A stretch of DNA of 64,000 nt. Source: Rhina ancylostomus. Its lineage: Eukaryota. The stretch is from assembly GCA_030265395.1 (NCBI GenBank), contig JARFYF010000054.1:13707288-13771287 (forward strand). Direction: 5' to 3'. Under the pieces are notes generated by a model, which was not told the origin of the DNA, made no database searches, and was given only the letters and a program-made list of their open reading frames with translations. Of the stretch, positions 24,201 to 64,000 are shown piece by piece. A program made the translations under genes and the position numbers. Each line of letters begins with the position of its first letter. Position 1 is the stretch's first letter.

Positions 24201-24259
24201 ATGAGCCTTAAGCATAACCATTCTGCTATCATACCAACCAGTTTACAGATATCTGCTGA

Positions 24260-38500: not shown

Positions 38501-38928
38501 TGAGTAGGACTGAGTGAGAATTAAAAACCCTTAAATTGATAATTTTGCATTAACTTACAAAATCAACTTCATCTTGGCTCATAAATGTAAAATATTTTCA
38601 AAAAATTATCAAACTGTTCCATATTTGTAATCTGAAGCTAAGTTAATTCTACTAGATTGGGATGCGATGAGAATGCTGTGTAACCACTAGGGGGTTCCTG
38701 GGCTGCTCATGCACCACTCTGCCAATGTTCCCTGACATCACCCATAAGTGATATACAAGAGATTGGAATAGTTAAGAGTCTTACTGCACTGCAATGCATT
38801 AAAATATCTGAATTAAAATTATACAGTAGGCAATAAAATCAATAAATTTGAGTAAATATTTCAAAATACCCAAACTGCAGCAGAAATACCAAACTACACA
38901 ACTTGAAAGTACTTAAAAAGCTACTTAC

Positions 38929-39040
38929 CCGTCGGACTACCTAGCGTCTTTCCATGCTGCCTTCTCTTTGCATCACTAAGAATGTCAATAATCAGGGTTG
39001 CAAACTCCCGGGCATTAAACCTAGCAAGTTTTTGTCGTCC
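38929..39040 (-). CDS. GIT1: GIT1 exon, SHD repeat 2: GRQKLARFNAREFATLIIDILSDAKRRQHGKTLGSPT
   Basis: 112 nt, tttag|GGA...ACGG|gtaagt. Confidence 0.97.
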
Positions 39041-40849: not shown

Positions 40850-41095
40850 CTTGTGACACAGGAGGCATTCACTCCCTTCACTCTATGCTGGCACTGGGAG
40901 CAATTCATCAATTCCATTCTCCCGCTAATAACCAACACATCTATGGAATATGGGAGGAAACCAGAGCACCAGGGGAAATCAGTGTAGTCACAAGGAGAAT
41001 GCTGTCTGTGTGGCATTTGCACAATGAGGTCAAATTCAAACCCTGCCTAATGGAGCTGCAAGACAACCGCAATACCTGAAGCTCCTCTGTGCTAC
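40850..41095 (-). mobile_element. V-SINE (HE1-like)
   Basis: Reverse-complement V-domain tgggaggaaaccagagcaccaggggaaatc. Confidence 0.75.
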
Positions 41096-44000
41096 CAGTA
41101 TCATTACTGTTGAAATGGACTGGAGAGATTCAAACACTGATGCAAATTTGGGAGACACCAACAAAATTTAAAACATTGAAGAAAGGCTAATGTGTAAAGT
41201 AACGAGTTTTTTTTTGAAGAGGGTGATAATTGTGATTTTGAAAGGATGTGGGGAGGGAAGAAACACTTTAAGGTGAGGTACAATTTACATCCTTCATTAG
41301 CATGGGAGTCTGAGAAGAGANNNNNNNNNNNNNNNNNNNNNNNNNNNNNNNNNNNNNNNNNNNNNNNNNNNNNNNNNNNNNNNNNNNNNNNNNNNNNNNN
41401 NNNNNNNNNNNNNNNNNNNNNNNNNNNNNNAGTTTAAAAATAAACCAAAATTAGAATGGTTTCACCTGATTGCATTTACCCTGTAATCTTGGATAAATGT
41501 AGTGAATCACCCAGTTAGCCATTGATCTCCATTTTAAACCTTGTAGCATCTGTTTAAAAGACTTGAACCAATCTGGAATTCTATTATTTTAAGGAAACAG
41601 ATGTATGCAAAAAAGACCTGGAGGTGCTGTTATTGCTTTTCTCTCTCCTGAACCTAATCTGTTCATTAGATCTCATTAAAATAGGCCGGTGGTTATTCAC
41701 TATAGAAAGTTGAACATTTGAAATTTCTGTTGACAACTGTTTTTGTATTCACTATTAATTAAAATTTTCTCTCATCAATAAGATGCCATAAAACTAAACA
41801 GCTGATATTTATTAAAAATACACTAAGAACCATGCTTCATCAGACTTTATTTTCAGAGGATTTTTTTTTAGTCACAGCATTTGGATGCTAAAATGAAATA
41901 CTTTGTCAAGAATTATTTTCGGAATCATAGAAAAAAATGTGCATTTTGACAGCCATAAAGTCACTCAATATGCCAAGGATTGAAGAAAAATAATGAAAAT
42001 AATGAAAGCATAAAACTGGAAGAAGAGTATTAGAGATTCATAAGAACTTGCTTTTCAAAAGCACTGATTTATAACTTTCATTTTGAAGCTAATTATAAGC
42101 AGGATTTAGAAAAAAACTACTGCATTTGATGCACTTCACTGTTTATCCTTGCAAGATGCTGCAGCTTCCATTGAGAAATCATTTCCTGAGAGTCATTTAT
42201 AAATGTTTAATCTTCACTAGCATTTTATTTGGAAGGAAGGATGATTTTGGAGGAAGGCATTCAGGTGAGAAACGTTAAACTGATACACTGTGCTGTCGAT
42301 AACAATACACTTAAATACCTAACAGACCAACTATGGTACCTTCTCCTCAGACCACATCAACACCTCACTCCAATGGATAAATGCCGAGTGAGTTATTTAC
42401 CTACTCAAAGTCATCCCTAATGTTCTCAGAGATACTGTTATACATCCTACTCCAAAATAATCACTTCCATTAAGGCTGTGAATTCGTTTAATGCACAGGC
42501 ATGGCACTTCCAATGGCTGGATGAGATAGTGGTTCTTATATGAAGAAAACAACTTCCATTGATATTCTCAACTTCTGAATAGCGTTTTTATCTTCTTTGA
42601 AGGATAGTGTATCATATTGCTGCACTGCTCAACAGACAGTTGAGGCCCCCAAGCAAACATTTATCCTTCATAGGTAAGCATTAGCCCATTTGATCAGGGT
42701 GGGTTGTCTTAGCTGGACAGTTTTTGTAATAGGCACCAAAACAACCGGAGACAACTGGATTTTCACCTCAGCCTACTTCCTAACTTTTGTTTACTGAGGC
42801 CACTTCTGCATGACCAAATGAAATCATAGTTTAGGTATCAAACCCATGATCTTGCCCTAAATATCTAAGCTACTGGTGTATTTATCCATGAAGCCAGTTA
42901 AATTCCATAGGCTGATGCATTTATTACAACTTGGCAGCAGTAGTGTTTGTGACTAGTGCTTACGTGAGTGACAAATTACAATTAATCCGTCAGATATGAA
43001 TTACCATGAATGAGTTGTCTTTCCACACTTCCCTTGCTTACACGTGAACTAAACAGAAAAGTTGTGGAGCAGTCAGTAAGACTCAGCCACTTCAAAAAAG
43101 GATTTTAAACAATGATAACAGCTACAATGCATAATTGATATTTACATCATGTCCCATCACTCTCCCTGAGAAATGAGGTCTGTTAGAGTCTTAACTCTCA
43201 CCATCCATCCAAAGTTCCTGATTTTTTCCATCCACTCAAAATGCACTGAAGATGAGAAACTTGGAGCAGAAGATGTTACAATAACTAAGGGAACTACTTT
43301 TGGTCTTTAACAACTCACTCAATGTCTTTTGGAATTCTTTTACATTGAAGTGAAATACAAACATGTCCTTACACACTTGTAGGATTTGCAATTCTTCTGA
43401 GAATTAGATTGCCCAAGTTTTGCTTTAAGTGTCCCTGAGCCAAGTCTTTTTTTTTGGAAGGATAATCAAGTTCAAATATCTGCATAGTTTTGCAGTTATG
43501 TGGCAACTGAGGAGACAAGACCTCATGCTTTGAATTTTTGTGGCAAAGGCAAGCAGGCTGTGAATCTGATGAAACATTAATAATTTGTTTCAGTGCATCT
43601 ACAGAAACAAAGATCAAACACACACAAAAGATCTCATAACCTCCTTCCTGCTAAGAATNNNNNNNNNNNNNNNNNNNNNNNNNNNNNNNNNNNNNNNNNN
43701 NNNNNNNNNNNNNNNNNNNNNNNNNNNNNNNNNNNNNNNNNNNNNNNNNNNNNNNNNNTTAGTACATTTAAATACCAGTATAACTTGCACATTTATGTAA
43801 AAATACCAGACAGATGGATGCCAACCTTAGTGAACAGCTAAAAATTACAGCTTCACAGCACATACACTTGAGGTAAATATGATGGGGAAAAGTAAAGACA
43901 CAGCTGGATAATAGGTTTCAACTTTACCAATGAAACTGCCTTGACATACAAAGATTAAGAACATTTTCACTAATAAAGTTTATAACAACTACAACCTAAT

Positions 44001-44457
44001 GATAGTGGCCATTGATCACCTGTAATACAAGCCTGTGCAGCCAGGAAAGTGTCACTACCACCCTCTGTTACTTTAGGAAAGATAAGTAGCAGGAAAGGTG
44101 CTCAATCAAGATGAATTTAATCTGAAGGTGGTGAGCTGGCTGTCAAGATTGCTGTAATTATGTGGCTTTACTCCAGGACATTTAAATACATAAGTATTAC
44201 AGTTTTTTTGGGAGGGGGTGGGGAATTCAATTCCAAATGATCACTTTTACTGTGAGAATGTGCTACAAGAATGAGTGTTTGTGAGTAATGTCCAAGCTAT
44301 AATCTTCCTTTAGTGTAGATTCATTCTTTGTTCCAATGTCTACCTTGTATTCTGGCATACACTATTAACAACAAACAATAAAACACTTTTACATTCATTA
44401 AGTAGGGAAAATACAAGCAAAAACACAGTTAAATGAAGACCATGTATTTCAACATAC

Positions 44458-44555
44458 CTGGTTCCTAGTTGCAGAATATTCGGGATTAACTGGAAGAAAG
44501 GGTACAGCACTACGCTCGGTCACTAAAGTGCTATGGTTCTGGGTGGTCAGCCACA
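44458..44555 (-). CDS. GIT1: GIT1 exon (V)WLTTQNHSTLVTERSAVPFLPVNPEYSATRNQ
   Basis: 98 nt, tgcag|TG...CAG|gtatgt. Confidence 0.97.
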
Positions 44556-47500
44556 CTGCAAATGCACCAAGAAATGTGATAGTGAGCATGACATTATAAA
44601 TAATATTTTGAAAGCTCCTGTGAATAATGTGGACTTAAACAGTTTACCAGAGAAAAATGATATCTGGGCAATTCAGGCTTCCAATGGTGTACATTAAGTA
44701 CATTAATATAGCCCGTCTGAGGGGGTCATTTAGATGTTAACTTTACGACTTAGGATTTTTAAAAAATAACATGACAATAGAACAAGAGGTGTTTTTGGTC
44801 CAACACAAACAAGCATGCATGTTTTATTTAACTTGAAGAGGTTGCTGTAGGCTGGTGCTTGTTAGGATTGTATTAGGTCAACAGTATAATAAATGCAGTT
44901 GACTGCAAGGACTGGAATACAGACTCACTTATTCCAGTTTTGATATCAGGCCTGCTGGTGGGGTGATACAGTGATTCACTGGAGAGGAAAACATGTTGAT
45001 AGGATAATTGACCATATGCAAAACATTCCGATCCCTTCAACATTGTTAGCATCCTCTTGTGGTTAAAAATACACACTGCATCAAGTCAACTTATTCCATA
45101 ATGACTATAAATAGGACCCGCAAAAAATATTCTTTGTGAATAGAAGCCTGTAGCTTGGTTATTTGTCTTTCCTGCAGCAAATGTGACTTATTGCTGCTGA
45201 AATAAATCTTCAATGTTGCAGCCCAGCTATCAAAACCCATCTGAATCTGTAAAACACTATCTGCAATAAAGCAGTGCTAATTAATCTTTTCATAAAGATT
45301 CCACTGCAGCAATCTAAAATTGGATTTTTTCTACTTCCTTAAAGATCCACTTTATGATAAAGTGGAGAAGTGATGAACAACCTAGAAGTATTTAATGAAA
45401 AGACATCACATGGATAGGATTTAATGACTTTTCTTCTTGCATTTTAAATAATGGTACATTAATACAAACTTTAATTTTGATTAAAATTATGAAATCTTTA
45501 AAAGATGTACATTGGCCAGTTCTGAAGGAGTCATCTTTCCTTAATCTTCATAGATGTTTCCTTCTGAATATGTGTCACTCCTACTCCGTATTATGGAAGT
45601 CAATTTTATTACAGTACCTCTTTGTCCTAATGATAATAGAAATTGTTTCTCCTAATCCTCCCGTAACACTCTACTGATGAACATTTTAAATTTATGTACT
45701 CTTAATTACTTCATATTAGTGTCAAATATATTGCAATTGTGCTAATGATTTTTAAATAATGTTTTTGCAATTGCCTCAGAATAGGTGAATTCACAATTAT
45801 GAAATAGTTATCTAGTTGAAAACTTTAGAATGTTTTGGCTCTATGAAAATTGCCTTTGATAACATGCCACTCCTTGCGCCACTCACTAGTACATCATTTA
45901 GCACTCAGGAATGAGCGCATTAATTGAATCAGCTCTAAAAATTGACATCATGTTCTGTGCTCTCACTGGTCAAATACCAATGACTTATGCATTGCCACTG
46001 GCCAAGCAAATGTGAAAAATGGCTGAATTTGGCAATCTGTCTGAATGCATTTAGGAAGCTTATAAACTGGCAAATTTTAACAACATTTATGTTTTTTGTT
46101 TTTTTAGTAAAAATACTTTTCTTCCAAGCAGAGAACACCTTAACGAATCAGTGTGCTGCAGGGTAGCACTAAGCAGGGCACGTGTTTAGGAGAAAAGACA
46201 AGCAGCCTATATACTTTAATGCTTTGGTGCAACGTAATGCTTTAGTATTTTAGTGCAATATGACTTATTTTAAATCTCACTCAATGCAATTTCTCTCATA
46301 ACGCAACGCAACTCAACATACTCTCCTAGAGGCAGTCTAAATTTGGAAAAATAACAAACTGCAGAATTTAGTTTGAGGCCTAAAGATATTCCACTTGGAA
46401 TAGAGATATAACAACTAGAATAATATCAAATAATATACACTTTTATAATTGTATCAGTCTTTAAATTAGTGCAGCACATGATCAGGTCTGAAGCAAAACC
46501 TACTGCAATCCTAACTTTCCAATTCACAACACTGAATAATAATGCGATGTGGTTTACAGTTCCTATGTAGGGAACCATAAAAATGATTTACAACATAGAA
46601 AGACTCAGAATTTCACTAATCTTGCTAATATTTTAAAAACATTTCTTCAGAATCCAGAACAGTTCTCTCATTTTCATATTTTTAAAAAACTGCAGCACTA
46701 CTACTTTCTAACAAATTGTTATTTACAACTAATTAGCATTTCATTATCATTACCTGTGCAGGAGCTTTAAAATAAATATGGTGAGCACACTTTAATTACT
46801 GTTAAAAGGCTATGTTGAAATACTGAGTAATCTGTCATGAGGGGAATGGTCTCAATTAATATACACAATGTGGCAGACAAACTCTAGAGATAAAAGCACA
46901 ATTTTATTTTCTCATATTAGTAGGCTCAGTCATCTCTCCCAAATGAGCTTCCTTTGGATGGTCATTCCATATTTAAAAAAGATGTTTAGGAATGGATGGA
47001 CAAAGTTGAAACAAAAGAAGTGATTTTCTTTTAAATATGATGAGTAGTGGTGCCATGAATGGTTGCAAATTTTCTTCATAACCTAGCCAATCACCAGTAA
47101 AATTCAGTCACAGAATTGCATCCTGCTGCATTAGTAAAATGGTACTTTACATTAAAATTAGTGGAAGATTAAAAACAATCATATCTGCAGTAGCTACTCT
47201 CTTACAAGACAGACATTAGACTACTCTTACACATTATTGGAAAGGTTTCTTTGTTCTGTTGTAATTTCAAGGGGTCAGAGGCTATTTGGGGTACATTTGA
47301 CTTAAAAAATGCACACAGTAAAGCATTTACATTAGTGCCTTCTGAATGTTAAAAGCTCACAACTGTAAACACAGGATAGGTAATGACTATACTTAGTATT
47401 AATCTATCATCCCACAATTATTGCATAACAGACCAAACTAATGACCCTTTTAATCATGAGGAATTTTTAAAAAATCACATCTGGATTTTCAATACAGGTA

Positions 47501-47729
47501 TAATTACGCATTTCTATTCTGTCACAAATAGTTTTAGAATGAAAGATGCTGTGTGAATACATACAAAAGAGCAAGAAAGTAAGTTCTGGGGATGTTAATG
47601 CAGAAATGTTCATTTTCTCAAATTCAGATATAGTTTTGTGTACCATAACTGAAGGAAATGGGGGTTAAAATAAAGGATTTTCATGCCAATCAGTACCCAC
47701 CTGAAGACCAGTAATCACATATATTCTGA

Positions 47730-48170
47730 AATAAAGACGGAAAATGATGCAATTCCTCAGCAGGTCATGAAACATCTGTAGACAGAGAAACAGTAGGCAT
47801 TTTGGCCTTTGACCTTCCATCAGAACTGGTTAACAACCTGAAATGTTACAAATAAATGTTTCTTCTCTCCACAGATGTTGCCCGACCTGCTAAACACTGC
47901 ATCATGTTTTTATTTCAGCAACCCAGATTCAATCCTGACTTCTGGTACTGTGTGGAGTTTGCGTGGGTTTCCCCGGTGCTTTAGTTTCTTCCTACAGCCC
48001 CAAAGATGTGTGGGTTGTCAGGCTAATTAACCACTGTAAGTTGACCCTAGTGTATAGGCAAGTGAGAGGATCTGGTGGCATCAATGGGGGAATTAATGGA
48101 GGACTGGACCGCTCTTTGAAATGACAGAATCAATGGGCTGAAAAAGCCTCCTCTGGTGGCATAAAGTGAT
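47730..48170 (+). mobile_element. Penelope-terminus fold-back followed by a V-SINE
   Basis: ctcagcaggtcatgaaacatctgt ... acagatgttgcccgacctgct; then tgtggagtttgcgtgggtttccccggtg. Confidence 0.65.
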
Positions 48171-48579
48171 ACAGATTTTCAGAATCTAGTTTTCTTTGGT
48201 TTTCAATCATATATATTTGACTCCTCTCTGCTCTAATGTGCCCTAAACCTTCCTATGCAAGGACACTATTCCTTCTGCATCATCACAAATTCCACAACAA
48301 TGACTCAACGGTGCGAATGGCGCTGCACTGTGGGACACTTTGCATCATAAGCCTAAACTCACTAGTGCTCTGGATTGGTAGCTTATTATAGGACCAATAA
48401 ATGATATAAAAATTTATTCCATCAGTTAGGGCTTGACTTGAATCCAGATTGGCAGGTATACTAAACTACAGAACTGATAAGCTCCCAAGAATTAAATTTA
48501 AGACTATTTTAATTCCAACAACAGACATTTGGCTTTGCAATCATCATTCATTCACTTCATGATAAAGTGATACGAGAGT

Positions 48580-49090
48580 CCATAAGATATAGGAGCAGAA
48601 TTAGGCCATTAGCTCAGGTCTGCTCCACCATTCAATCATGGCTGTCTTTATTAAAACCTCTTTTCTCCTGCCTTCTCCCTGTAACCCTTAACCCCATTAC
48701 CAATTAAGAACCTATCAATCTCCATCTTAAATGCATCCAATGACTTGGCCTACCAGCAACCACATCTGTGGCACAAATTCCACAGATTCACCACCTTTTG
48801 GGTGAAGAAATTCCTCATCTCAGTTCTAAAGGGATGTCCCTTTAATCTGAGGCTGTGCCCTCATATCCTAGAATCTCCTACTAATGGAAACATCCTCTCT
48901 AGGTCCCCTCTATCCAGGTCATGCAGCACAGAAACAGACCTTTCAACCCTGTGTCCATGCTGGACATCAAGTACCTACTTATAATAATCTCAGTTTTCAG
49001 CACTCAGTCCGTAGCCTTCTATACCATGGTGTTTTAAGTGCACATCTGAATACCTATAAGAGTTGTAAGAGTACCTGCATCCACAACCCT
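48580..49090 (-). mobile_element. Two CR1-like 3' fragments
   Basis: cataagatataggagcagaattaggccatt (CR1 3' end, reverse) and gcagcacagaaacagacc. Confidence 0.8.
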
Positions 49091-52000
49091 ACAGGTTACA
49101 CACAGGTTTCAATTTTTCCTTTTGCAACTGGGTTTGCCACCTACCTGCATTTTGGCATGGAGAAATCTCTGCAGAAAGCTTCAATGTTTTAAACTTAACT
49201 GCATTTTAACAGACTTCATGAATTAGTTAGTGAAACAATTCCTCACAGGGCACACAGACAAAATAAGTAAGGTGGCTTTGGGTTTGATATGCAGGCTCTG
49301 CTGAGTTAGCCAAGGTTTTCAACTAATATCCACTTCTCCAGGACAAAGAGAATGAAACAGCCTATATTCTCCTGTCTACACACAGAGGCTCCTGCTAGAA
49401 AGAATGAACATCAGGAAAAGACAGACTTGGCCTCTGTCCAGGCTCATTTGGCAATACCCACAAGATGCAGAATATCTGGAAAATTTCACAATTGGATAAG
49501 ATAGCTGAAGCTGAGAAGTGGGTATAATCTGGAAAGTTATGGATCTATTAATTTATACAAATGACATTTTCAATTTCTTTTCTTATCTAGCCAGTGTTCA
49601 GAGTTCACTTCAGTTTTTTTTTATCTCACACCTACATCTGTTAACAGCGCTACAAGATCAGGGTCTCACAACGCAATCAACAGTCATGCTTTGGAACCTA
49701 CCATATTTCAAAGACCTCTGATCCTGAACTAAAACATGTCCCAAACAATTCACAACTTGCACAATTAGCACTTGGAAATTGAATAATCAAGTCAAACAAC
49801 TTTCAGAGAAATTTAAGCCACCCTTAGACTCAAAGCAAGCCAAAACCAGTTCAGGCGAATAATTACAAAAAAAAGTAATTCTTACCTTATTTTGTATCTA
49901 GCTTTTTATCATGTGTTTGCAGTTATGTTAAATCTCCTTTAAAACCAAAATGTACCTTGTTTGAGCTCTGTGCTCCAAAGCATTAAACCCAAATAAGCTT
50001 TGAATTTTAGTTCTCTCTTCCTGTTTAGGTAGCTAGCTAGCTTCTATATTTAGGAAACTGATGAAAAATACCAACAGACTGATGAACACAAATGTTTTGA
50101 ACACTATCCATAATCGAGGCATTAAACTGCCTGAACTCCAGGCAGTTCATTTCCACTCTTGTTCAGCTACCTTCTACACTGTAGTACACACAGAGTTAAA
50201 TACCACATGTTACTTATCCTCATCAGATAATGAGAAAGTGCTGAACCAAAAGCTTTTCCAAAAATGGATAAGTTTTTCCAGTCTCCAAAAAGTCTGTTGG
50301 CAGCAATAACAAGCACTTCCCACAGTAAGCACATTCCTATCACAGTTCCTTACTAAAATTGATTTTTGGTGACCCTTAGACCACTGGTACCACTATTACG
50401 CTACATTATATGCTTCCTTTACAAGAGTTTGATACAAAAAATGATTTTAAAGAATATACAAAATGTTTTAACAAAATGTTTATATTAAAAAAACAAGACT
50501 GAACTCCTGATTCCAAATAACTTAACTGTTTAAAGATGATGATCAGTGTCATAATATTTTAGGCCACCTCTGACAAGAGCTACGATGGCACAAGCTGGTT
50601 GAATGGGGGTATTACTGAACTTCGTGACACAGAATTAGATCATCTGGTCTATGCTGCCTGTAGATAAGAATGCTGCAATTGTCTTCAGCATCTGGGAGCC
50701 AGGAAATAGACAAAATGACCATAGAGTTTCTGTGTACAAGGCCTATCCAAGAATACCTCCTGGAAACCATTGAAATGCAGACATACAGATGTTCTAAGAG
50801 GCTAGGGTCTAATCTTGTCAGATAAGTTGCTTGAGATATTCACACACAAAATGATTTTGGATAGGTTGGGGAACCAGGGAATTTTGCTATGGGAAGAGAA
50901 TAGGAAGAAGAGAAGGGGGGGGGGGGGGGAGGGAAGTCTTCCATGACAGCATCCCTGTTAATACACACAGAAATATTAGACAGGTTTAAAAATCATACAA
51001 TTCAACTTGGATTTCATGCATTCTGCATATTTGGATACCAACAATCAAAATTAATTAAAACATGGGCTAAATCATGTTTTGTTGAGTGGTAGCTCAAGAA
51101 AGTGCTGAGATATTAGGCTGAAACACTGTTTCTTACCTTTATGCTTGGCATTGATGTACCAATAGTAATAATATTCATTTGAACAGTCACCAATCTTCAT
51201 TAAAATGGTAAATTCTTTATTTTGTTGTATTTTTAATGAGCTAATTTTTAAAAAAAAATTTCAAATCCACTTCATAGCTTTTATATGTCTCAGTTAGCAA
51301 TGTGCTGCCAAATGCCATCAGGGTAGAGCTGGCAGTAGGGCTTCTAGTTCTGCTTTGAGGCCTGCTCTGTGTCATGGAAAGTTAGTACAGTCCTCCAGTT
51401 TAGCCCATTTCATGTTGCCACATCTGCTGAATGGGCCATGGGATTAGCCTGGCAGTATCACAGCAGGTCAGATCAAGCATAGTCTAGCCCAAAGATCAAT
51501 AAGGGAGATAAAACTCTACTTATGGCATACAGCAGACCATCCAGAATGATAACATTTCCAATTATGGGCTTTTGGCATAAATATGCATCTCTAGATTCAA
51601 GAAACATTGCGACCCTGAATAACTGTCTTGCAACTTTTTGTCAACAATGACTACAAAAGCTTTTCCGATGGACTCTCACGATTGCTAACTATGCATCACA
51701 CAGCCAAATGTTTAATTTGGCAACTATTGTATTGGTTGAATCAACTCCAGTGTTGATGCATCTGTGAAGTATTTTTCTTTGAGCACATTTGATTAAAGAC
51801 ACAAAGGAAGATTAATATTTGCAGATAGTAAAAATAAGCTTTGATTCTTTATTTTACACGTAGGGAAAACATTTGGTTTAGGTTACCCTTTTTCCTTCAA
51901 TAACTAAGCAGCAAAGTGATGGACACCAATCTGCCAATTTTATATGTGCATCTGCTGTAAAATCTCCATACAGCTTATTCAGGAATTATTTTTCTTTCCT

Positions 52001-52309
52001 CACCAACATTCAGTACACAGTGAAAGTAGACACAAATGCATTTATATCTATAGTGGGATTAAATTGAGATATGAAGAGACATGTTCAAAATCATTAGCAA
52101 AGTTTAATGTAGTTTCTTTCTTTCATGCTCCTCCTAGAGTGCTGGCTAACATGATCAATATGAATAATGCAGAATGGAACACGTCTGACAAAAAGCATCC
52201 GCACAGAGTTCCTGGAGATCACATCTACTCTACTGNNNNNNNNNNNNNNNNNNNNNNNNNNNNNNNNNNNNNNNNNNNNNNNNNNNNNNNNNNNNNNNNN
52301 NNNNNNNNN

Positions 52310-52940
52310 NNNNNNAACACTACTAATTTCTCAATTTTTTTTAAATATCCAAAAATCCATCAACCTGTCATGAATATAGCAGTGACTGAGTTTCTATAGT
52401 CCTCTTGGGTAGAGGATTCTGAAGATTCATATTGTCTGGAAGAAGTTTCTCCTCATCTCAGTCCTGAATGGCCAGCCCCTTATTTTTGGGCTGTGCCTAT
52501 AGCCTTCTCCTGATCTTATTTTATTGTGTTCTAGCCACACCTGGCAGGGGAAACCATCATCCTTCATCTATATAGTCAACCTCTACAAAAGTTTCAAAAT
52601 GTCTCTCAATCTTCTAAACTGGAGGTATAGGTTCAGTATGCATGAGCTTGATACTGTCAGGGCAGAATTTCCTCAAAATGAGGGATTTAAAAGTTAACTA
52701 ACAAAGCATATGTGCCCATGTTCCTTTGATCATCAACATGACCCAATCTCTCACCATTCAACAATTATTGTGTCTTCATTATATGCAAAGTGGATGACCT
52801 CATTTTTCCTCATTATATGCCATTTGGCATGCTCTCTCCCACCGACTTTGATTGCTTATATTCCCTGAAGCGTTTTCATGATTCGCTGTTATCATAATCC
52901 CACCAAGTTTAATGCCATCTAGAAATTGGAAATATAACAT
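52310..52940 (-). mobile_element. CR1-like fragment
   Basis: gaagaagtttctcctcatctcagtcctgaatgg; aagtggatgacctcatttttcc. Confidence 0.65.
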
Positions 52941-54156
52941 TTGGTCCCTTCTTACAAAGAAGCTGACATGCTCTCAATAGAAACAGAGGTGAAGATTTCT
53001 AAAGAGCAAAATACTGTAGGTGCTGGGAATAAATTAAAAACAGAAGATTCTGGAAATACTCAGGTTACATCTAAGAAGTGAAAAACAAAATTAGTGTTTT
53101 GGGTCTAAGATTTGTCAGATCTAGGGAAAGGCTGACAAGCAGATCTTTAATAAAAAATGTAGGAGGAAGTACCTTCCAAGGATTTGGGTTTTCTATTAGA
53201 TTTAATCAAAAGGGAATGAATTTTATTTTTAATTGCTCAGCAAAGCATTGGGGTGAGGCCAAGGGGATTTTCATTCCCAACATCCAGTTTTGCCTCTTTC
53301 AGCTTTGCTCAAAATCTATTACATGCCAAACTTTTCCATATCAGAAATAAGGACAAAGTGAAGTGTTGACATATCCTTCTTGCCAAAGATGCTGCCCAAC
53401 ATTTCCAGAAGAGTGTAAAAATTTCAACTTGATTGCACATAGGTCCCTCACACTAAACAGGTTCCAGTTGAACATTATATCTTTCCAATATTGAAAAGAT
53501 ACGTAGTTTCACATGTATTCCTTGATTTATGAATGCTCTACTTAAAAAGAGATACAGCATGGAAACAGGGCCTTTAGCCCTCAAGTCTGCACCGACAATC
53601 AATCACTCATTTACTCTAACCCTATCTTAATCTCATTCTTATTCTCCCTACATTCTCATCAGCTCCTCCGATTCCACCATATTATGAAATCACAGTAGCC
53701 AATTAATCTACCAACATTTCTTAGTTTCTTTGTGAACTTACCAATTCAACAGTTCTGATTTATATTGTTCATTGTATAGTATGAGTTTAAAAGGAAGGGC
53801 TTCTCCTTGACACTAAGGGAAAGATTTTCCAGTCTACAAATTGCAGAAACAAAAATTATATGGATTCCAAATGCTCATATTCATGGCTTTACTGGAATGC
53901 ATGAGTATAGAAAATCATCCTGCTTAGTTCACAATAATTTTTTAGACACGGGGACCTAGGGAGCCTTTGTTAACAAAGTATAAATCTTTGCCTCAATGCC
54001 ATTGACTCTTTGGGGTATTGTCTCGATTTATGAATCAAACTTTTGCCTCACTAAAGAACATACCTCTCATTGTACCAACATACCTTTTAATGCATTTCAA
54101 CCAAGTTACAAATTTTGCTTAATGAAATACCAAAAATACATGAACTATCGATATAC

Positions 54157-54229
54157 CTGCATCATTCTCACGTCGATCAACTTCATCATAAACATCCATC
54201 GCAAGTTCTTCAAAAAGTCGGTTATTTAG
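54157..54229 (-). CDS. GIT1: GIT1 exon, SHD repeat 1: LNNRLFEELAMDVYDEVDRRENDA
   Basis: 73 nt, tgcag|CTA...GCAG|gtatat; Spa2-homology motif. Confidence 0.97.
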
Positions 54230-55099
54230 CTGCACATAAAGGAAAGAAAATATATAGCAATTTAGAAACTTCAAGCGCTTCTTTTAAAAGGGACTGTCCA
54301 AACTGAAACCAAGCACTTTGGTATTTCACTGATGAGGTTCAAAAGATGGTTTGCCTAAGCTTGCAATAAGCTAACTTATAATTAACAGAGCAAATAGTTG
54401 CAACTTATTTTAAGCCTTTAGAAGTATATCATTCCTGCTTAAGAAAATTAAAACTTACAACTCTTTTGGTCTGTGAACATAGGCCTGCTTTTCAATCATT
54501 TTAATTACTGTCTTTAACTTCACCACAGAAGTCCTTGAGATGATGTTTTCTAGTTTGTAGTTCAAGGACAACTGAAAATATTATATGATGTTTTCCCAAG
54601 GCCAGTTTATTGGCTTCAACAGCTTGAAACAGACATTACTGATCTGCTGATGGCAAAGAAAAACCTGTAGACTCCTGGAGTAGAAGTACACTTACCCACT
54701 GTGAGAACTATGTTTGTGTTATTTTTACTTCTTTCCTACTTCCAAGGATTTGTGCTTTCTTCCAGCTGGTTTATCAAAGGGAATGCATTTTATCTGTATT
54801 TCCACAGCAGGCATTGTGGCAGGGCACAGGGAGGTTATTGACCTGCTGTCCATTAACAGCTTTATACCGTTTCAGATTTCCAGCTTGTGTTACATTTTGC
54901 TTTTAGCTGCTGTGGGCATAATGCACAACAGGCCTTACAAATATTCACGCAGAGCCCGAATCTGGTAGGACTTTGCCTGCCAAACAGTCTGTACCTCCTA
55001 AAAGGGATGCCTGTCCCATTTCCAATTCTGCTGCCATTGCCTGTGTTCCCATGATGCTGCATTGCCTCTTTCTCTCCTCTCTACTGCAAATGCATCCTT

Positions 55100-55395
55100 T
55101 CTTAGGTATATAGGTTAACACTATACACAATACTCTAGATGTGGTCTCACCATGGCCATATACAATAGCAATGAAGTATTTCTGTATTCAAATCCTTTCA
55201 TAGTAAAAGTTAATATACCCATTTGCTTTCCTAATCACTTGTGCAATTGCATGTTAGCCTCAGGTGAACTGTGTACAAGCAAAACTAGATCTCCTTTAAC
55301 ATCAACACTACACAATCTCTCACCCTTTCCAAATAATCTCGTGTGCCCAAAAGTGAGTGTCCCCACATTTTTCCACATGGTGTTCTATCTACTTT
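55100..55395 (-). mobile_element. CR1-like fragment
   Basis: tatacacaatactctagatgtggtctcac..ccccacattttttccaca. Confidence 0.65.
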
Positions 55396-55584
55396 GTTCT
55401 TCTTCCCGTTATTCAAAAAGCATAGAATTAATTGGGATCTGAACATTATCTATTCGCTTCTAGTTATAGCTACAAAATAGAGAGAATTATAGAATGAGAT
55501 TTACAAGAAAATACAATGACCCCACCATCTCATGTTATAGAAATAGATTTATTCAGTCACTGTAAATCAGTGAATGCTTCCCTT

Positions 55585-55830
55585 ATACGATGAGATGGAC
55601 TCTTGACCTCAATCTACCTTGTTATGGCTTTGCACCTTATTGTCTACCTGTAATGCACTTCCCTGTAGCTGTGACACTTTACTCTGTTATTGTTTTTACC
55701 TGTACTACCTCAATGCATTCTGTACTAACTCAATGTATCTGCACTGTGTAATGAATGGACCTGTGTGAACTGTATGCAAGACAAGATTTTCACCGTACCT
55801 CAGCACAAGTGACAATAATAAACCAATACC
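55585..55830 (+). mobile_element. LINE 3'UTR tail (Rex1/Babar-like, tentative)
   Basis: Ends in gtgacaataataaaccaatacc; family assignment is from memory. Confidence 0.45.
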
Positions 55831-56381
55831 AGTGATCTTAAATTAAGATTCTTATTAGGGTCAAAAGACAATTATATGTGGCCCATTTAGATGTTTTAAT
55901 ACATGGATTTCAAAATGCTGGACACCTTAATAGAAAAGTGGTTTTGGTGCACTTAAATTTTATAAAATGAAACTTTTGGTTTGAATAGATTTACAAAAAA
56001 ATGCTACCATTGAGGGCAGGGCATGCACATGTTATTTTCCTTTACATCTTTAGTAACCATCTCAATAGGGAATGTGTCAAAAATGCAGCAGCATGAAAAA
56101 AGGCAAAAAAGTCCCATGGAGAGCCACAGACATTCATAACTCAGACGGCAAGCCTTCAGCTGATACACTGCACTGAGTCTAGGATTAAACCTGCTCTGAG
56201 CACTTGAAATTACCTCGGTTTTCTATATCTACCTCTGATTCAAAGATCTAAATCATTATTTTTTTATATATAAGAAAAGGCAATGATTACCATCTAGCAA
56301 TGGAGAATATTCTATTTAACTCACTCAGCCTATGGTCTATGTACCTAAAATCAAGAGATCACACAAGTTTATTACCATCAC

Positions 56382-56587
56382 AAAGCAAAAAACTGCAGGT
56401 GATGGAAAAAGTCAGCAGATCAGGCAGCATCTGTGGAGAGAAACAGAATTAACATTGCAAGCTGATGATCAGTTCTGATGAAAAGTCATCATCCTGAAAT
56501 ATCAACTCTCCCTACCCTGCTGCCTAGCCTGTTGAGTATTGCCAGAATTTTCTCTCAGATTTCTAGAATCCGCAGTTTTTGCCTTTT
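56382..56587. mobile_element. Penelope-terminus fold-back element containing a minimal hammerhead-like motif
   Basis: Arms aaagcaaaaaactgcag / cgcagtttttgccttt; AGTT-CTGATGA..GAAA-TA-TC-AACT at 56471-56507. Confidence 0.65.
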
Positions 56588-57639
56588 GTTTACAATCATA
56601 GCTTGACATAATCAAATGCTATTTAAAAATCTTTACCGTAAAATTATTGGCCATCTAAGCTCTGAAATAAGATGCCTACAGCAAACAAAAGCAATCACCA
56701 GAAAAAGTACTGACTTTACTCAATGGACCATCCAGTGCGACAATGAAATTGTATTATGCAATCTTCTCTGGTGGCGGTAAGAATTCCTGTGTATCTTACG
56801 GCTTGGCTCTAGGGATCCTGATCACTCCCTGCTGTAGCTCATTAGGAAAGGGGTATGTGCAAATGCTGACAGGATAAGATTAAGCTACAATACTCTTCAC
56901 CCTCTCACTTGCCACAATGACACCCCACTCAATATAAATTCTCATTGGAACAGTGGCTAGTTTGGCACGATACCAAAGGTTACCGGTAAAAGTCGTGAGA
57001 AAAGAAACATACTTAAAATGACAAATGCAGCAATTTTACACATGCCATAATTTCAGCAGATCTTACTGCACGTACAGATAAAAAGTACATCTGGAGTATT
57101 TCAAAATACATTCCCTTTGAACAAAGTGTAGAAACTCTAGAATCATGGAAGGTGGTTTCTAAGCTAGTCCATGACCAACTGAATGGTGAAGATTCTGCAG
57201 TGAAAATAGTTAGATTGAAATTAATACAGAATAGTTCAATGCAGTTACAACCAAAATGGAAAACTATACAATTAGGAAACACTCAAATGCAACACACAAA
57301 AAGATTCAAGAGTAACTGAGTTTCAGCATCTATTAAATTTCATAAGCCAGCAAGGAAGCTTAAAGCCAAGCTACATGTTAATATATTAAAGTACTGGAAA
57401 TGCAATAGCTGCAGCTAAAAAGTATCTAGTTAAATGTTAATCAGTTGTTTCAGATCCCAACTAATAGATTTGTGCAGATATGGCATTTTCTGCTTATTGC
57501 TCCAATTTCAATATTTATGCTATCCATAAAGGAAATTCCAATATACATGGGTAATAATTTGTTAATATTTCCACATGTCCAGCAGTCAAGGATAAAAATA
57601 TTCATAATAATGCACAAGTATTGTTTATTCATAACTTAC

Positions 57640-57691
57640 TGCTTGAAGTTTCTTTTTGGCTGCCTTAGCCAGTTCTGACAAGTCCAAGCTA
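57640..57691 (-). CDS. GIT1: GIT1 exon SLDLSELAKAAKKKLQA (52 nt, or 49 nt through NAGNAG)
   Basis: ttcag|TAG|CTTGGAC...CAAGCA|gtaagt. Confidence 0.96.
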
Positions 57692-58264
57692 CTGAAGAGA
57701 AACATGAAAAACAACTCAGGAACTAGGTCAATAAAGCATACATCTATAACAATATTAACTTTCACTTGGAACCTGGTACAAATGCTCAAGATGAATTAGT
57801 GGCTCTATAAAACTGTTCATTACAGATATGCAGAAATTTAGATTACAAGGGTCTGAAACCAACTGGAGATAAAGCAATGTCACAAAACTTAATTTTGTTA
57901 GGTTTCCTTTGCAAAGTGTGAGACTTAAGAGATGGAGTTATGGTTACCCCTTGGTTCTGAAACTGGAATACTGAGAAATGGTGCAACTCGACAGCCATTT
58001 TATTCAATGACAACCTACAACCTGATATCATGAGAACAGCAGTCACCGTCAGTAGAATCCTGCTAATAACATACTGCTTTGCTGACCAGTTCAATCTGTT
58101 ACCTATACATTTACAATAAATTAGTTTTAAAAGTACCATGCATTGTCTGTGCACTTAGTTAAGGTGAACAAGATTTTAGCTTAAATACTGCCCCAAGGTA
58201 AACAGGACATACATCTTGAAAGTATTTCTTTTCACATATATCCATATAATAATCCATCAGATCA

Positions 58265-58540
58265 GGTGTTTATAATTTTGTGTACAGTTTGCACATTATC
58301 TGCGACCATGTGGGTTTCATTCCACTTCCCAAAGATGTGCGTGTCAATCAGTTAATTGGCCACCGCAAAATGCCGTGTGTGTGTATGTGTTGTGGGGAGA
58401 GGAGAGGGGAGTTGACGAGAACATGGAGAGAATAAAAAATTGAGATTAATTTAGGAAAAAAGTGTAAAGGGGCGACTGATGGTCACCACGGACTTGGTGG
58501 GCTGAAGGGTCTATTTCTGTGCTGTGTGATTCTATGACAC
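58265..58540 (+). mobile_element. V-SINE (HE1-like)
   Basis: tttgcacattatctgcgaccatgtgggtttc..cccaaagatgtgc..gggctgaagggtctatttctgtgctgt. Confidence 0.75.
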
Positions 58541-61500
58541 ATTAATTTGTTGATCCAGAGAGTTCCTTGTGTTAACTATGAATTGTGTAAGGACACACAA
58601 CAAACACATCCCCAAATTATGCATGCTCAATTTCCCAGAAAAGGGATAAAGGAAAGAGAAGATTTTGCATGTCAACTAACTTTTTCAATTGACCAATGTA
58701 GAATAACTCGAGGAAATACGAATAATGATCATTTCAAAAATGAATAAAATGCAATCTGGAAAGTAATCATTTAAAATTAAATACATAGAGAGAAACTATT
58801 AAGCCATTACTTAATTACTGAACTGGTCTGAGTCAAGAATCTATTGAAGTGTCTGTATGGTATCCTTTACACTAGTATAAAATTATAGGGAAGAGGTCGC
58901 TTGAAATATGGGCTCCATGCACATAAGTGCAATGAAAAATCTAAAGAACAATGTATGAAATTAGCATATTTATCCAAATTATACTTCATTTTGTTCTGAA
59001 TTTTGCTTACTTGAATACAAATATCCTTTCTTTTTGAGCAGAGCAAGCAGCATATGTTGTATGTTCCTGAAATCACAAAACTGATGGAAGATCAACAACT
59101 GAGGGAAGATATGGCATTTGGAGATAGCAAGTGAAGGATTATGGAACAGTTCAAACATATTTTGGAGCAAGTCAAAAAGGTGTCATCTAATCTGAAGAAC
59201 TGCTTTAATATTGTTCTTCAACAGTATTGCAATTTTAACATTCAGGATTCTTGCATGCATTTTTGTGGGCTTCACGATAAATTTAGTGAGGTTAAATTAA
59301 GTGCAGTTACATAAATTACTTTTTCCTGTAGTGGCTGATGTATTTAGCAGTATTTATAATACACGTGGATTGCTTGCATAACATTTAAACAAGATTTAAC
59401 ATACAATTTTTTTAAAGTTTGAATGATACTGAAATTTCTCTAGTGATTACTTGAAAGTAGTTCTGATCACAAATAAAAGAACCTTAAGAAATCAACTTCT
59501 CTAGGAAGATCTGCCTTTGAGTTGCCTACTGTCTACTTCAGGGAAATGGTGAATAACTCTAGCTGTAGAGTATTACTTCTGTTATAGTTTTCTGATTCAG
59601 CAATGCTAGCTGGGAGGTGTACCTTCTACAACATACAAATCAGCAAATATTTACAATTCTGAGTTCCATATTGCTCTACCAGCCTCCAAAGGCCAGCCTA
59701 CATATTGGCAGTGGGAGCTGCATCTGGCCTTGGGCAAATATAGCATCAATAAACAGGTTCAGATATTCTACAAAATGACAATATAGTTTCCAAAGTTACA
59801 GCAACAACATTTTGAAGATTCTCGAATCAGGTTTATAAAGGAATTCTCTGGTTTTCAAATTTGAGATTATTCTGGGGGGGGGGNNNNNNNNNNTTTTTTC
59901 GCCCCCCCCCCCCCCCCCAACCCCAAACATTTGGCTTGGTTACAATTTATCCTAATTTTTCCTTACACAATCCATCACTAGTATCTAAAGCGTCTCTTAC
60001 AATCCTCAATCAAAACTGATTGCAATTCAATCACATTTCAACATTAGAGGCACATCTTTCCTCCACTGATCCTGCTCTTGTATAGTTCCTTCCTCACCTC
60101 TAACAATAACAACAAAAAAAAAAAATCGCACAATGAATTAACTATTCCAAATTAAGTTCTCATTACTTTGGTATAACGGGTATAATAAATGGACTGATTT
60201 TGAAGAATTTTCTGTCAAATCAAGGTATTGATTTACAATGACAGCAAGTAAATAGAAAGATCCTTTTCAATTCTGAAGCTTTTGAATCTTCACTCCAAAT
60301 GAAATTGCAGATACTGTAGTACTAATACACAAGATAACAGGCATGTGGCAAAGTATTTTCAATATTATCAAATAATTAAGATTGGTTATAAGCTACATCT
60401 TTAGACCAATTACCCATAGTCAATCACCACCACAACACTAATCACACCGTTTAGGAACTGGAGTGATCTTTTAAATTGTTTCAAGAAGAACACAGGGATG
60501 GAACTTTAGTTCTTTTACACTTAACATAAATTTGGCAGTTTCATGACTTGCAGCATTCAACTATAGCAACATCTCTAATTAAGTGATAACATTTGCAGTT
60601 ATAATCTAACCACCTTATAGTCATACTACATTTATATTAATGCTTCTGACACTTCATTATTTCATGAGATGTCTTCTCCCCCTACCACCAGTAGATGAAA
60701 AGCAAATATTATTTTTCTTGGATATAAGCAATTCATTTTAATACAGTTAGCCTTCAGAGTGTGGAGAGTCTTTGGTGCCAAACCTTGAGAAAACTTAGAA
60801 CATTTGGTAATACTTTTGTCTAAAGAAACAGACTACAGCTAGAACCAATTAAGACATTAAGGATTTTAAAAAAAACAAATTCCTTTCAATTTGGGGGTTT
60901 TCTTGCAGCATGGAAGGATATTAAAAAATGAAAGTAGGAAAAATGGAAAGAAAGAATATCTGAGAATTAGAGAGGAATAAAATGTTCAGTGCAGAAGAAT
61001 ACAGCATCCAGGGGGTCAGATACTGGCACGACCGACCTTTTGCTCTGTACCAAACTTCCCATTAAGTCAAAAGGGTGCTCCACAGGTTACCAAGCTGAGG
61101 TAATGGATATACTTTGTATCTGGCCCCTCATCTTTACACTAGCCAGAGCTACTGCATCAAGTACAAACCCATTAAGATGTTTACCTGTTTTTTTTTAGAT
61201 TTTTCATTACTTCAATGTATATTTATTAACAATTTGGTTTTTAAATTAAAAAATCAAATTAAAATCACTAACTATTTTAAATGTGTCAGATGTTTTGGGG
61301 ACAGCAGCCTTAGGCTTCAATATGTCAGATGTGTTTGGGGACAGGAGCCTTAGGCCTCAATGACAAGAGCCCACTCTAACCAAGGAATACCCATGGAACT
61401 GAGGCCAATGCCTCAAGATTGTGGTGGGCCTTATGACAGCAAAATTTTGATGTAGCAGGGGGCCAGGGTGGGAGTTTCACAGAATCTAGCCCATTGGTGT

Positions 61501-61836
61501 AATATTATCGCATATTGCAGTCATGATAATCTTTAAATATGACAATATGCAGAAGATTTTATAAAACAAATGGCCACATGGTCAGGCAAAATCTGAAGTA
61601 CCCTGGCAAAGTTAGACCATGACAAATTCTATGCAGGTACTTCATTTAGTTAATCAATTTAAAACATCAATTCAAGCACAAGTATTTTAAGTACCTAGTT
61701 ACTGAGGTTAGGGTGGATGTTGTAGTTTGGCAAGAAATAAATCACAGGCAAGTAATACAGAGAAGCAATGTTCTAAGTTTAGGTAATATTGGCATGCTTT
61801 GTAAACAAACGGAAGATCTAAATGAATGAAAAATAC

Positions 61837-61863
61837 CTCTGGGTCATGCATTTTTGCCGTGTT
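61837..61863 (-). CDS. GIT1: GIT1 27-nt alternative microexon (R)TRQKCMTQ(S)
   Basis: aaatag|AACACGGCAAAAATGCATGACCCAGAG|gtattt, phase 2-2; matches the human 9-aa insert RSRQKCMSQ. Confidence 0.93.
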
Positions 61864-62437
61864 CTATTTTCCAAGGAATGCAAAGGAGGAAAAACAGGAA
61901 AATCTGTTAGAATAAGCAACCTGTGAGAACCTAAGAATATTTGTGGGTTATTTGTTACTTTCAGGTCTAAACACATATTCATTCTTTGAGACATGGATAG
62001 ATTAGGGTAAAAAAAAAACCCTCTTCATTCAGTGCTATTCTATTGTTGCATTACTGTTGAAAATAATAAAAAGGTGACACATGGGCAATTTCTTCAACAA
62101 AATACTGGTGTGATTAGTTGCATTACCATTTGTGTTTAAAAAAAATAATGTAATTACAACCAAAGCTCATCATCCATTTCATTTGCACCATAGAGCAACA
62201 AAGTACACTGCAAATTTACTCTATTTTATTCACCCAAACTTTAGTTCATGTGCAATGCAAACATATTTAGTTTGGTAGTGCATTGCCAAAGTGAGACCAT
62301 TAGAATTTTCAAAGCCATTTATACGAATAGAGCTTTAAAAAGTCAGAAAAAGTTAGGATGCTCAGGAAACTGTGGTATCATTAGAAACAATTGAAGTGTG
62401 GCAGGATAATAAATACACCGGACCTTTTTCTCCCTCC

Positions 62438-63500
62438 AATCTTTGTGGGAAGAATATGTTGGAATGCTCATTCTGGGGATTTAAAAAATCCTGTTGTTAA
62501 AACATAACCAAATTATCAGTATGATCACAAGGAATTAATCTAAATTCATGGCCTATCTCCTTGCCCCACCCCACCAGCCCTTCCCCTCCCCAAAAAGGGT
62601 TCAACTAGTTTTAGTTCAAAGAAATTAACTGTGTAAACTGGTCTCTATAAGAAAAAGGTAGCATACATTTAGGAAGCTTTTTTCCAGAGAATAACCTTTT
62701 TCCCTATAACTTGCAAATGTTTTAAACTACACTTGCATTTAGGGATAGTAAATTATTTTGCACAGTGTATTAGTAAGTGTGAAATAAAAGCAAAATAATG
62801 GAAACAGTGAAAGTGAGCTGATTTCAGCTGAGCAAGGAAAATAGGGCATATGGAATTCAAGTAACAGAATAAGCAACTGGATATCTCCTTAACCAATCAG
62901 GAAGATTGAAATATATTTGAAAGATATAACTGTGTGTAAATTCAGAGAAGCTAAATTCAATGTCAAATTAGGTTCAGAACAAGAACAAGGGAAATAAAGA
63001 CTAAATTCAGGAAACAAATGCTAAAATGTTTTTAACATTAAATTTAACACTTTTAATGTCTCCTTACCTATGAGCACCAACTAGGTTGATTATCAGTAAT
63101 TAACAAAAAGCATATCTGGTTTTGAAATTTTAAGATTTAACTTTGTTTAGCTTATGTCCCATATAAATACAGAAACTTCACAGCACTCACAAAGCATTTT
63201 ACCAGTGAGGTGTTTTTGAGAAGCTATTGGCAAATAGATAGCAATTTTAGATATTCATTTTTAATTGCACATCAAGTCACTACACCATTTGTGCATAAAT
63301 AATAATGCACATAAATAACGATGCACCATTAACCTCACTATTATTTTGAGAGAAAAATCTGGCCCATTATTGCACACAGTCATTAAACAATGAAATGCTT
63401 CACATCAACATATGTAATTGCATTAAGGAAAAATTATGCTTCTGGCTTTTTTAAATCCCCCCAGAATGAGCATTCCAAACATATTCTTCCCACAAAGATT
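62438..63500. repeat. Near-perfect inverted repeat pair (62438-62488 and 63447-63500)
   Basis: aatctttgtgggaagaatatgttggaatgctcattctggggatttaaaaaa against its reverse complement; the arms differ only in T-run and G-run length. Confidence 0.93.
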
Positions 63501-64000
63501 GCCTTATTGAAAATTCTGAGAAATTGAAAAAAGCTTTTGTTTGCATACATTCTCAACCACTTACAGCCGTAGGAACATTTTTCAGCTACCGCAAAAGATT
63601 ATTCAGATCACATATCAGACACAAAGTAATTAAAATATACAGTAATACTTGCTAAAATCTTCAACAAAACTTTGATCCAAGTATGTATTTTCAGAGACCA
63701 AAAGCAACCTTTAATCAGGTGTTCAGTTTTAGTCATCTAAAAGTCACCGAGTGAGACAGCAATTTAATGCTGATGCTCAGAATTCCATCTATTTAGAAGA
63801 AAAAATGACCATTGGAATAAAAGATTAAAAATATGACATTTAATGCAAGGTTGAATCTTTGTACAATTATGGTAAAGCTCCATAATCTGCTTTCCATTAT
63901 TCAGAAATCCTGATGGTTCTACATCTGGCTCATTGGGTTTATAAACCCAGTGACCCTGTGTTTATACTCACCTGGGCTCTGTTTCCTGCACTCCCATTAA

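What the first reader, a model, noticed from the sequence alone, without database searches (positions are those of the whole stretch)
61790..61915. 27-nt GIT1 microexon with complete SRRM3/4-type regulatory architecture
Seen: the exon encodes (R)TRQKCMTQ(S) and is absent from the ORF track. The upstream intron reads ttctaac (branch-like, 61906-61912), a displaced pyrimidine tract, TGC 17-19 nt before the exon (61880-61882), then a purine-interrupted weak acceptor ggaaaatag. The donor gtattt is weak; GCATG lies about 40 nt downstream and TGCATG lies inside the exon. Established: human GIT1 has a 9-aa alternative insert RSRQKCMSQ, and neural microexons depend on SRRM3/4 through such UGC motifs. 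Inference: the exon and its regulation predate the shark/bony-fish split, with RQKCM invariant.
Basis: partly seen in the sequence, partly recalled or inferred. Interest (0 to 1): 0.7.

Follow-up and report, generated by a model that had tools for sequence, protein, structure and literature searches.

The report
Known GIT1 microexon, possible GIT2 twin
This is a real 27-base mini-exon in the GIT1 gene of a cartilaginous fish, the same one already catalogued in humans and zebrafish and likely spliced in mainly in nerve cells; it is ordinary, except that the sister gene GIT2 likely carries a 6-base mini-exon in the matching intron, which would point to one ancestral exon.

Summary
Every motif is at the stated coordinates. 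The 27-nt exon (61863-61837, minus strand) is the orthologue of human GIT1 exon 8. It is already in annotated GIT1 isoforms of 16 cartilaginous fish species and is catalogued as a neural microexon in human and zebrafish. Three corrections. RQKCM is not invariant: 61 of 191 insert-bearing records have it. The weak donor and both GCATG sites are not part of the published SRRM3/4 architecture, and a bony-fish orthologue lacks the GCATG sites. SRRM3/4 dependence is not shown to be conserved: human responds to SRRM4 (+88 PSI), zebrafish is unchanged in srrm3/4 mutants (-0.73). No RNA run was available for this species. By-product: a candidate 6-nt microexon sits in the same intron of GIT2, here and in a bony fish, with TGC at the same distance. 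The two exons may share an origin before the GIT1/GIT2 duplication. The scan's notes on this genome held no earlier report of this exon.

The parts
61837..61863 (-). 27-nt frame-preserving cassette microexon of GIT1, phase 2/2; adds 9 residues (254-262 in P0041 numbering)
   Evidence: same peptide in annotated isoforms
61864..61879 (-). 16-nt spacer between TGC and exon, ending in the acceptor TAG; 5 of 11 pyrimidines at -14 to -4, the lowest of 20 GIT1 acceptors
61880..61882 (-). TGC at -19 to -17, predicted SRRM3/4-responsive element; at -18 in a bony-fish GIT1 locus (L053)
61883..61903 (-). Displaced polypyrimidine tract, 19 of 21 pyrimidines
61906..61912 (-). Branch-point-like TTCTAAC, predicted branch A at -44; not mapped experimentally
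61831..61836 (-). Donor GTATTT (GAG|GTATTT, 6 of 9 consensus letters, lacks +4A and +5G); GTAT also in L053
61793..61797 (-). GCATG at +40, possible RBFOX site; not present within 150 nt in L053; may be chance
57640..57691 (-). Next GIT1 exon, with a tandem acceptor (CAG TAG; starts at 57691 or 57688) that adds or omits one serine; both forms are annotated in cartilaginous fish
13785..64000 (-). 3' part of the GIT1 gene (microexon and 12 located downstream coding exons); the 7 located upstream exons lie beyond the window end, the nearest ending 8.2 kb past it (G000:C54:13779484)

Best explanation
This is the cartilaginous-fish copy of the GIT1 27-nt cassette microexon (human exon 8), likely included mainly in neurons and endocrine cells and likely helped in by SRRM3/4 acting at the TGC behind its displaced pyrimidine tract. 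Shown: exon, splice sites, frame, orthology, annotated included and skipped forms in related species, and two SRRM_C (eMIC) domain genes in this genome. Inferred for splicing: the distant tract and branch point leave a weak acceptor, so the exon is skipped by default; SRRM3/4 tips it to inclusion (about 60% that this is the main driver in this fish; about 85% that inclusion is neural-enriched). [quoted passage not shown]
For: Peptide annotated in 16 cartilaginous species, with skipped forms also annotated in at least 6 of them. Human HsaEX0027507: PSI 11 to 99.7 on SRRM4 expression (PMC7935315 supplement); SRRM4 gain, knockdown and RNA-ChIP at the upstream splice site (PMC6317919). Zebrafish DreEX0034900: neural PSI 95, endocrine pancreas 62, zero in testis, ovary, gill and kidney (PMC12626424 supplement). 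Acceptor layout shared with bony-fish locus L053. Shark orthologues of other microexons respond to SRRM4 like human ones in minigenes (10.1101/2024.09.17.613571). SRRM_C domains on C54 and C46. AlphaFold model: residues 250-263 have pLDDT under 50, just before the helix at 268; the solved GIT2 chain 6jmt lacks the insert there. Tyr246 and Tyr293 hold human GIT1 closed (PMC3974724) and keep those numbers in the fish protein. The included isoform stabilises focal adhesions (PMC6317919).
Against: The zebrafish orthologue is unchanged in srrm3/4 mutants (lowest of three comparisons -0.73), while 191 of 243 neural microexons drop by more than 15; it is also included in zebrafish muscle (45) and immune cells (46). 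The donor is not strong, unlike the typical SRRM3/4 target. UGC is neither needed in all targets nor rare by chance. All 9 fetched isoform records of one ray (Pristis pectinata) include the exon. The closed state was shown with the 770-residue, insert-bearing human protein, so the insert does not itself open GIT1. Annotated isoforms are computed models whose read support I did not see.
Confidence: 0.7

Rival explanations
1. The exon is real and neural-enriched, but in fish it is driven mainly by other factors (RBFOX at the downstream GCATG, or loss of PTBP1 repression on the pyrimidine tract); SRRM3/4 is at most a helper, and strict dependence is a tetrapod or mammalian state.
For: Zebrafish value of -0.73 in srrm3/4 mutants and inclusion in muscle and immune cells; GCATG at +40 here; donor unlike typical targets.
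Against: GCATG is absent from the bony-fish locus L053 and has a 9.6% chance per 100 nt; TGC position is kept in both fish lineages; teleost sequences are reported as the least human-like in SRRM4 response, so zebrafish may be the derived case. No paper linking RBFOX to this exon was found.
Confidence: 0.25
2. In this lineage the exon is included broadly or nearly always, so it is not a neural switch.
For: 9 of 9 fetched Pristis isoform records and 34 of the first search's cartilaginous records include it.
Against: Skipped forms are annotated in other rays, sharks and the chimaera; weak acceptor and donor predict default skipping; annotation is not quantitative.
Confidence: 0.05
3. The stretch is a chance intronic pseudo-exon.
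For: Each motif alone is common; no RNA from this species was seen.
Against: Letter-for-letter match to an annotated peptide at the right junction and phase in 16 species, and a homologous exon in mammals, lungfish, birds, reptiles and teleosts.
Confidence: 0.01

Closest known systems
Human GIT1 exon 8 microexon (HsaEX0027507; GIT1-A versus GIT1-C of PMC6317919)
   Same: 27 nt, 9 residues, same junction between ankyrin repeats and Spa2-homology domain; 7 of 9 residues match the mammalian records (RSRQKCMSQ, 21 records including orangutan).
   Different: T for S at positions 2 and 8; followed here by a tandem acceptor that can add a serine, a form seen in none of the bony-vertebrate GIT1 records fetched; SRRM4 response untested here. 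The human sequence itself was not fetched.
Zebrafish git1 microexon DreEX0034900 (PMC12626424 supplements)
   Same: 27 nt, neural-enriched; a bony-fish locus (L053) shows the same TGC position, spacer and GTAT donor.
   Different: Teleost peptide RARPKCPTQ (6 of 9 identical); unchanged in srrm3/4 mutants; L053 lacks both GCATG sites.
Annotated GIT1 isoforms of sharks, rays, skates and chimaera (for example P0041, P0046, P0069)
   Same: Identical 9-residue peptide, with included and skipped, one-serine and two-serine forms.
   Different: None at the protein level; tissue pattern and regulators are not given by these records.
GIT2 6-nt neural microexon (DreEX0034907, HsaEX0027514)
   Same: Likely the same intron of the paralogue; candidate exons in this genome and in bony-fish locus L048 have TGC at -20 and -21 and TGGA at -10 and -8, as the GIT1 exons do.
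   Different: 6 nt instead of 27, strong GTAAGT donor, no recognisable exon sequence likeness, and clearly srrm3/4-dependent in zebrafish (-62). That my candidate is the catalogued exon is inferred from length and a short downstream intron, not shown.

Membership tests
Orthologue of GIT1 exon 8 microexon | Host gene is GIT1, not GIT2 | tested here: met
   An upstream exon is 100% identical to records named GIT1; the other GIT locus on C46 matches GIT2.
Orthologue of GIT1 exon 8 microexon | 27 nt, phase 2/2, at the junction just before the Spa2-homology domain | tested here: met
Orthologue of GIT1 exon 8 microexon | Homologous peptide | tested here: met
R1 and K5 in 191 of 191 insert-bearing records, R3 190, Q9 190, C6 189.
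SRRM3/4-dependent neural microexon | 3-27 nt, frame-preserving cassette | tested here: met
   Sequence; both forms annotated in related species, not read in this species.
SRRM3/4-dependent neural microexon | UGC between pyrimidine tract and AG | tested here: met
   -19 here, -18 in L053; chance 0.29 per 21 nt.
SRRM3/4-dependent neural microexon | Strong pyrimidine tract and branch point placed far from the AG | tested here: met
   Tract ends 16-19 nt before the exon; predicted branch A at -44. Motif match only.
SRRM3/4-dependent neural microexon | Stronger-than-average donor (typical, per 10.1101/2024.09.17.613571) | tested here: inconclusive
   6 of 9 consensus letters, lacking +4A and +5G; 9 of 18 other GIT1 donors score 6 or less. 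Not strong by this crude count; no entropy score was available.
SRRM3/4-dependent neural microexon | Regulators with an eMIC (SRRM_C) domain in the genome | tested here: met
   Two loci over the Pfam cut-off with open frames.
SRRM3/4-dependent neural microexon | Neural-enriched inclusion in this species | not testable with these tools
   No RNA holder listed; true for human and zebrafish orthologues.
SRRM3/4-dependent neural microexon | Inclusion depends on SRRM3/4 | not testable with these tools
   Orthologues disagree: human +88, zebrafish -0.73. It is built like a member; membership in this fish is open.
RBFOX-enhanced cassette exon | Conserved (U)GCAUG in the downstream intron | tested here: not met
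   Present at +40 here, absent within 150 nt in L053, the only orthologous locus seen.

The most novel reading that the evidence does not exclude
The GIT1 27-nt and GIT2 6-nt neural microexons sit in the same intron and descend from one microexon that arose in the single GIT gene before the vertebrate duplication, then diverged in length (27 versus 6 nt), donor strength (GTAT versus GTAAGT) and SRRM3/4 dependence (zebrafish -0.7 versus -62). They would form a natural pair for asking how a microexon keeps neural inclusion while escaping its master regulator.
Probability: 0.55. Interest if true: 0.45.

Novelty: already known. Interest (0 to 1): 0.24.

Why it matters
The exon itself changes little: it is annotated in cartilaginous fish and catalogued in human and zebrafish, and shark-to-human conservation of microexon control is published. 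Two things are worth keeping. A cartilaginous-fish minigene is the outgroup that decides whether zebrafish lost SRRM3/4 dependence or mammals gained it. And if the GIT2 candidate is the catalogued 6-nt exon, the hinge before the Spa2-homology domain has been under neural splicing control since before GIT1 and GIT2 separated.

Tried and rejected
Expression: no RNA holder listed for a 9-kb query; this is no evidence either way. Conservation island: a contig of a related organism (run X2) covers 61794-62036 with 3 other letters in 238, against 141 in 5,764 in eight other pieces nearby; expected 5.8, P = 0.17, so not shown. RNA structure around the exon: z = 0.38, rejected. A copy of the 27-nt peptide in GIT2: none; two stricter filters missed the 6-nt GIT2 candidate (0 hits) because its acceptor is AAG, and a looser 6-nt filter found it among 8 hits in the GIT2 locus and 4 in GIT1. 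Likeness of the GIT2 candidate's acceptor to the GIT1 one is modest: rank 1 of 358 AGs in its intron over 45 nt, but 11 of 3,526 in the locus, and 3 of 358 and 58 of 3,537 over 25 nt. No GIT2 protein record with a 2-residue insert was obtained. No matching insert in 96 of the 149 representative proteins that could be anchored on both sides, including one hagfish record; single representatives cannot show absence. Among 21 other fetched introns at this position, one weak 12-nt candidate (L085); three of these introns were cut about 30 nt short and many loci are close relatives. Papers without a useful hit: PMC7821500 supplements, PMC12626420, PMC12868881 supplement, 10.1101/538223 and PMC6724607 passages. 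Two wanted papers were not held. No complex prediction or fold search was run.

Full report
Observation. All listed motifs are in the sequence at the stated places on the minus strand: TTCTAAC 61912-61906, pyrimidine tract 61903-61883 (19 of 21), TGC 61882-61880, acceptor GGAAAATAG, exon 61863-61837, donor GTATTT, GCATG at +40 and TGCATG in the exon. The exon is 27 nt with phase-2 introns of 10,333 and 4,145 nt, and reads (R)TRQKCMTQ(S). Singly the motifs are common: TGC in 29% of random 21-nt stretches, GCATG in 9.6% of 100-nt stretches, TGC at -7 to -25 in 3 of 19 other GIT1 acceptors. The most distinctive feature is the displaced tract: 5 of 11 pyrimidines next to the AG, the lowest of 20 acceptors. 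A combined filter, written after seeing the candidate, found it and one ordinary acceptor in 79 kb.

Gene. The genome holds two GIT loci with Spa2-homology domains, on C54 (this window) and C46. An upstream exon of the window's gene is 100% identical to records named GIT1 from sharks and rays; the C46 gene matches GIT2. Twenty coding exons were placed against P0041; the first exon and one covering residues 641-670 were not found. The organism is a cartilaginous fish, probably a ray; I did not settle the species.

Orthology and conservation. Of 277 records examined, 32 lacked the anchor, 3 could not be read, 51 lacked the insert and 191 had it. Forms: cartilaginous fish RTRQKCMTQ (40 records, 16 species by the names; two labels are cut to '[C' in a series that is otherwise Callorhinchus milii), mammals RSRQKCMSQ (21), lungfish RTHQKCMSQ (1), teleosts RARPKCPTQ or RARPKCPSQ (86), birds and squamates RVRPKC-type (41), sea turtles RARPKGTAQ (2). 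R1 and K5 are in 191 of 191, R3 and Q9 in 190, C6 in 189; RQKCM is in 61. So the exon predates the split, but the claimed invariance fails. R1 is largely forced by splice geometry (AG from the upstream exon plus a purine; inference). Q4 in cartilaginous fish, lungfish and mammals suggests that P4 arose separately in teleosts and sauropsids; no insert-bearing amphibian, coelacanth or gar record was seen. The records are cluster representatives and listed members from three capped searches (120 listed of 3,576, 1,257 and 405 hits), not a fair sample, and most are computed models.

Regulation. In human cells SRRM4 raises the exon from PSI 11 to 99.7 (PMC7935315, one supplement row, 12 of 19 files searched). 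PMC6317919 (abstract, outline and passages) reports SRRM4 gain, knockdown and binding at the upstream splice site; its correction (PMC12400059, whole text) concerns figure insets. In zebrafish the orthologue has PSI 95 in neural tissue, 62 in endocrine pancreas, 45 in muscle and 46 in immune cells, and its lowest change over three srrm3/4 mutant comparisons is -0.73, whereas 191 of 243 neural microexons fall by more than 15 (PMC12626424, sections 5 and 14, supplement rows). 10.1101/2024.09.17.613571 (passages and section 10; supplements closed) describes targets as having a distant, strong tract and branch point, a UGC in about three quarters, and stronger donors, and finds responses conserved from shark to mammals with teleosts least alike. 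A bony-fish GIT1 locus from metagenome contigs (L053) keeps the tract, TGC at -18, the purine-rich spacer and the GTAT donor, but has no GCATG within 150 nt downstream or in the exon (one search placed this exon one base late, so its offsets for L053 are one too large). Two SRRM_C domain genes are present here. No RNA holder was listed. My reading: neural enrichment about 85%, SRRM3/4 as main driver about 60%.

Protein effect. The insert is residues 254-262, between the ankyrin repeats (137-226) and the first Spa2-homology repeat (273-301). The model from a 42-sequence alignment gives pLDDT under 50 at 250-263, which fits a flexible hinge, though shallow sampling of the insert could also lower it. 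PMC3974724 (abstract and passages) shows Tyr246 and Tyr293 hold human GIT1 closed against paxillin; both keep these numbers here. That work used the insert-bearing 770-residue form, so the insert does not abolish the closed state. Tuning of it is my inference (about 35%), consistent with the focal-adhesion difference in PMC6317919.

GIT2 twin. The catalogue lists a 6-nt neural, srrm3/4-dependent exon in git2a and human GIT2 without saying which intron. A loose scan found a 6-nt candidate with a GTAAGT donor in the matching GIT2 intron here (G000:C46:29209256-29209261), one of 8 hits in the locus. A bony-fish GIT2 locus (L048) has one 6-nt candidate in the same 440-nt intron, about 80 nt before the next exon; the zebrafish exon lies 131 nt before its next exon (from the coordinates). 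All four acceptors have TGC at -18 to -21 and TGGA at -8 to -10; 0.5% of 3,806 AGs in the window have both, a test framed after the fact. Against: the exon sequences are not recognisably alike, acceptor likeness ranks only 11 of 3,526 in the locus, no protein record confirms the insert, and a tolerant hinge could gain exons twice. The host intron is old: 23 non-vertebrate-type loci have it, 22 with a tandem acceptor, and 3 further loci lack the intron (labelled these 3 as tandem acceptors in error; many loci are close relatives). The searches 'GIT1 microexon', 'GIT2 microexon' and 'microexons, elephant shark, SRRM4' listed no title or abstract opening on a shared origin; the two papers were not read for it beyond passages of one, and the main evolutionary microexon papers were not held or not read, so it may be in print.

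Verdict. A real, already annotated microexon with the layout of an SRRM3/4 target; whether it depends on SRRM3/4 in this fish is open. Interest 0.24, nearly all of it from the zebrafish discrepancy and the possible GIT2 twin.

Noticed in passing
L018:9256-9261 (G000:C46:29209256-29209261) and L048:5916-5921: Candidate 6-nt microexon with GTAAGT donor and TGC at -20/-21 in the GIT2 intron that matches the GIT1 microexon's intron; likely the catalogued GIT2 6-nt neural exon.
   Followed up: partly
window 57691/57688; L018 near 9885; loci L048-L104: Tandem acceptor (one serine more or less) at the next exon is shared by GIT1 and GIT2 here, bony-fish GIT2 and 22 of 23 non-vertebrate-type loci, but absent in two bony-fish GIT1 loci (L052, L054) and in the bony-vertebrate GIT1 records fetched.
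   Followed up: partly
L025 (C54) and L026 (C46): One SRRM_C domain gene lies on the contig of GIT1 and one on the contig of GIT2, as expected of duplicated chromosome blocks; which is SRRM3 and which SRRM4 was not tested.
   Followed up: no
window 18121-18478: The GIT1 exon for residues 641-670 was not found; it probably lies in a run of N here or at 15756-15839.
   Followed up: partly
window 27093-26875, 25706-25596, 36312, 25596: Annotated ray isoforms skip residues 475-547, 548-584 or both, or shorten exons by 3 or 9 residues at alternative splice sites.
   Followed up: no
protein records P0427, P0169, P0089, P0132, P0111: Position 4 of the insert is Q in cartilaginous fish, lungfish and mammals and P in teleosts and sauropsids, suggesting two separate changes; sea turtles lost the cysteine.
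   Followed up: partly
window about 55570-55830, 56400-56570, 58420-58540: High-copy interspersed repeats in the introns, seen as very deep cover by run X2 and as repeated matches to the GIT2 locus.
   Followed up: no
L085, intron near 5230: One weak 12-nt exon-like candidate (TGC at -9) in the matching intron of a non-vertebrate-type locus; not seen in the other such loci.
   Followed up: no
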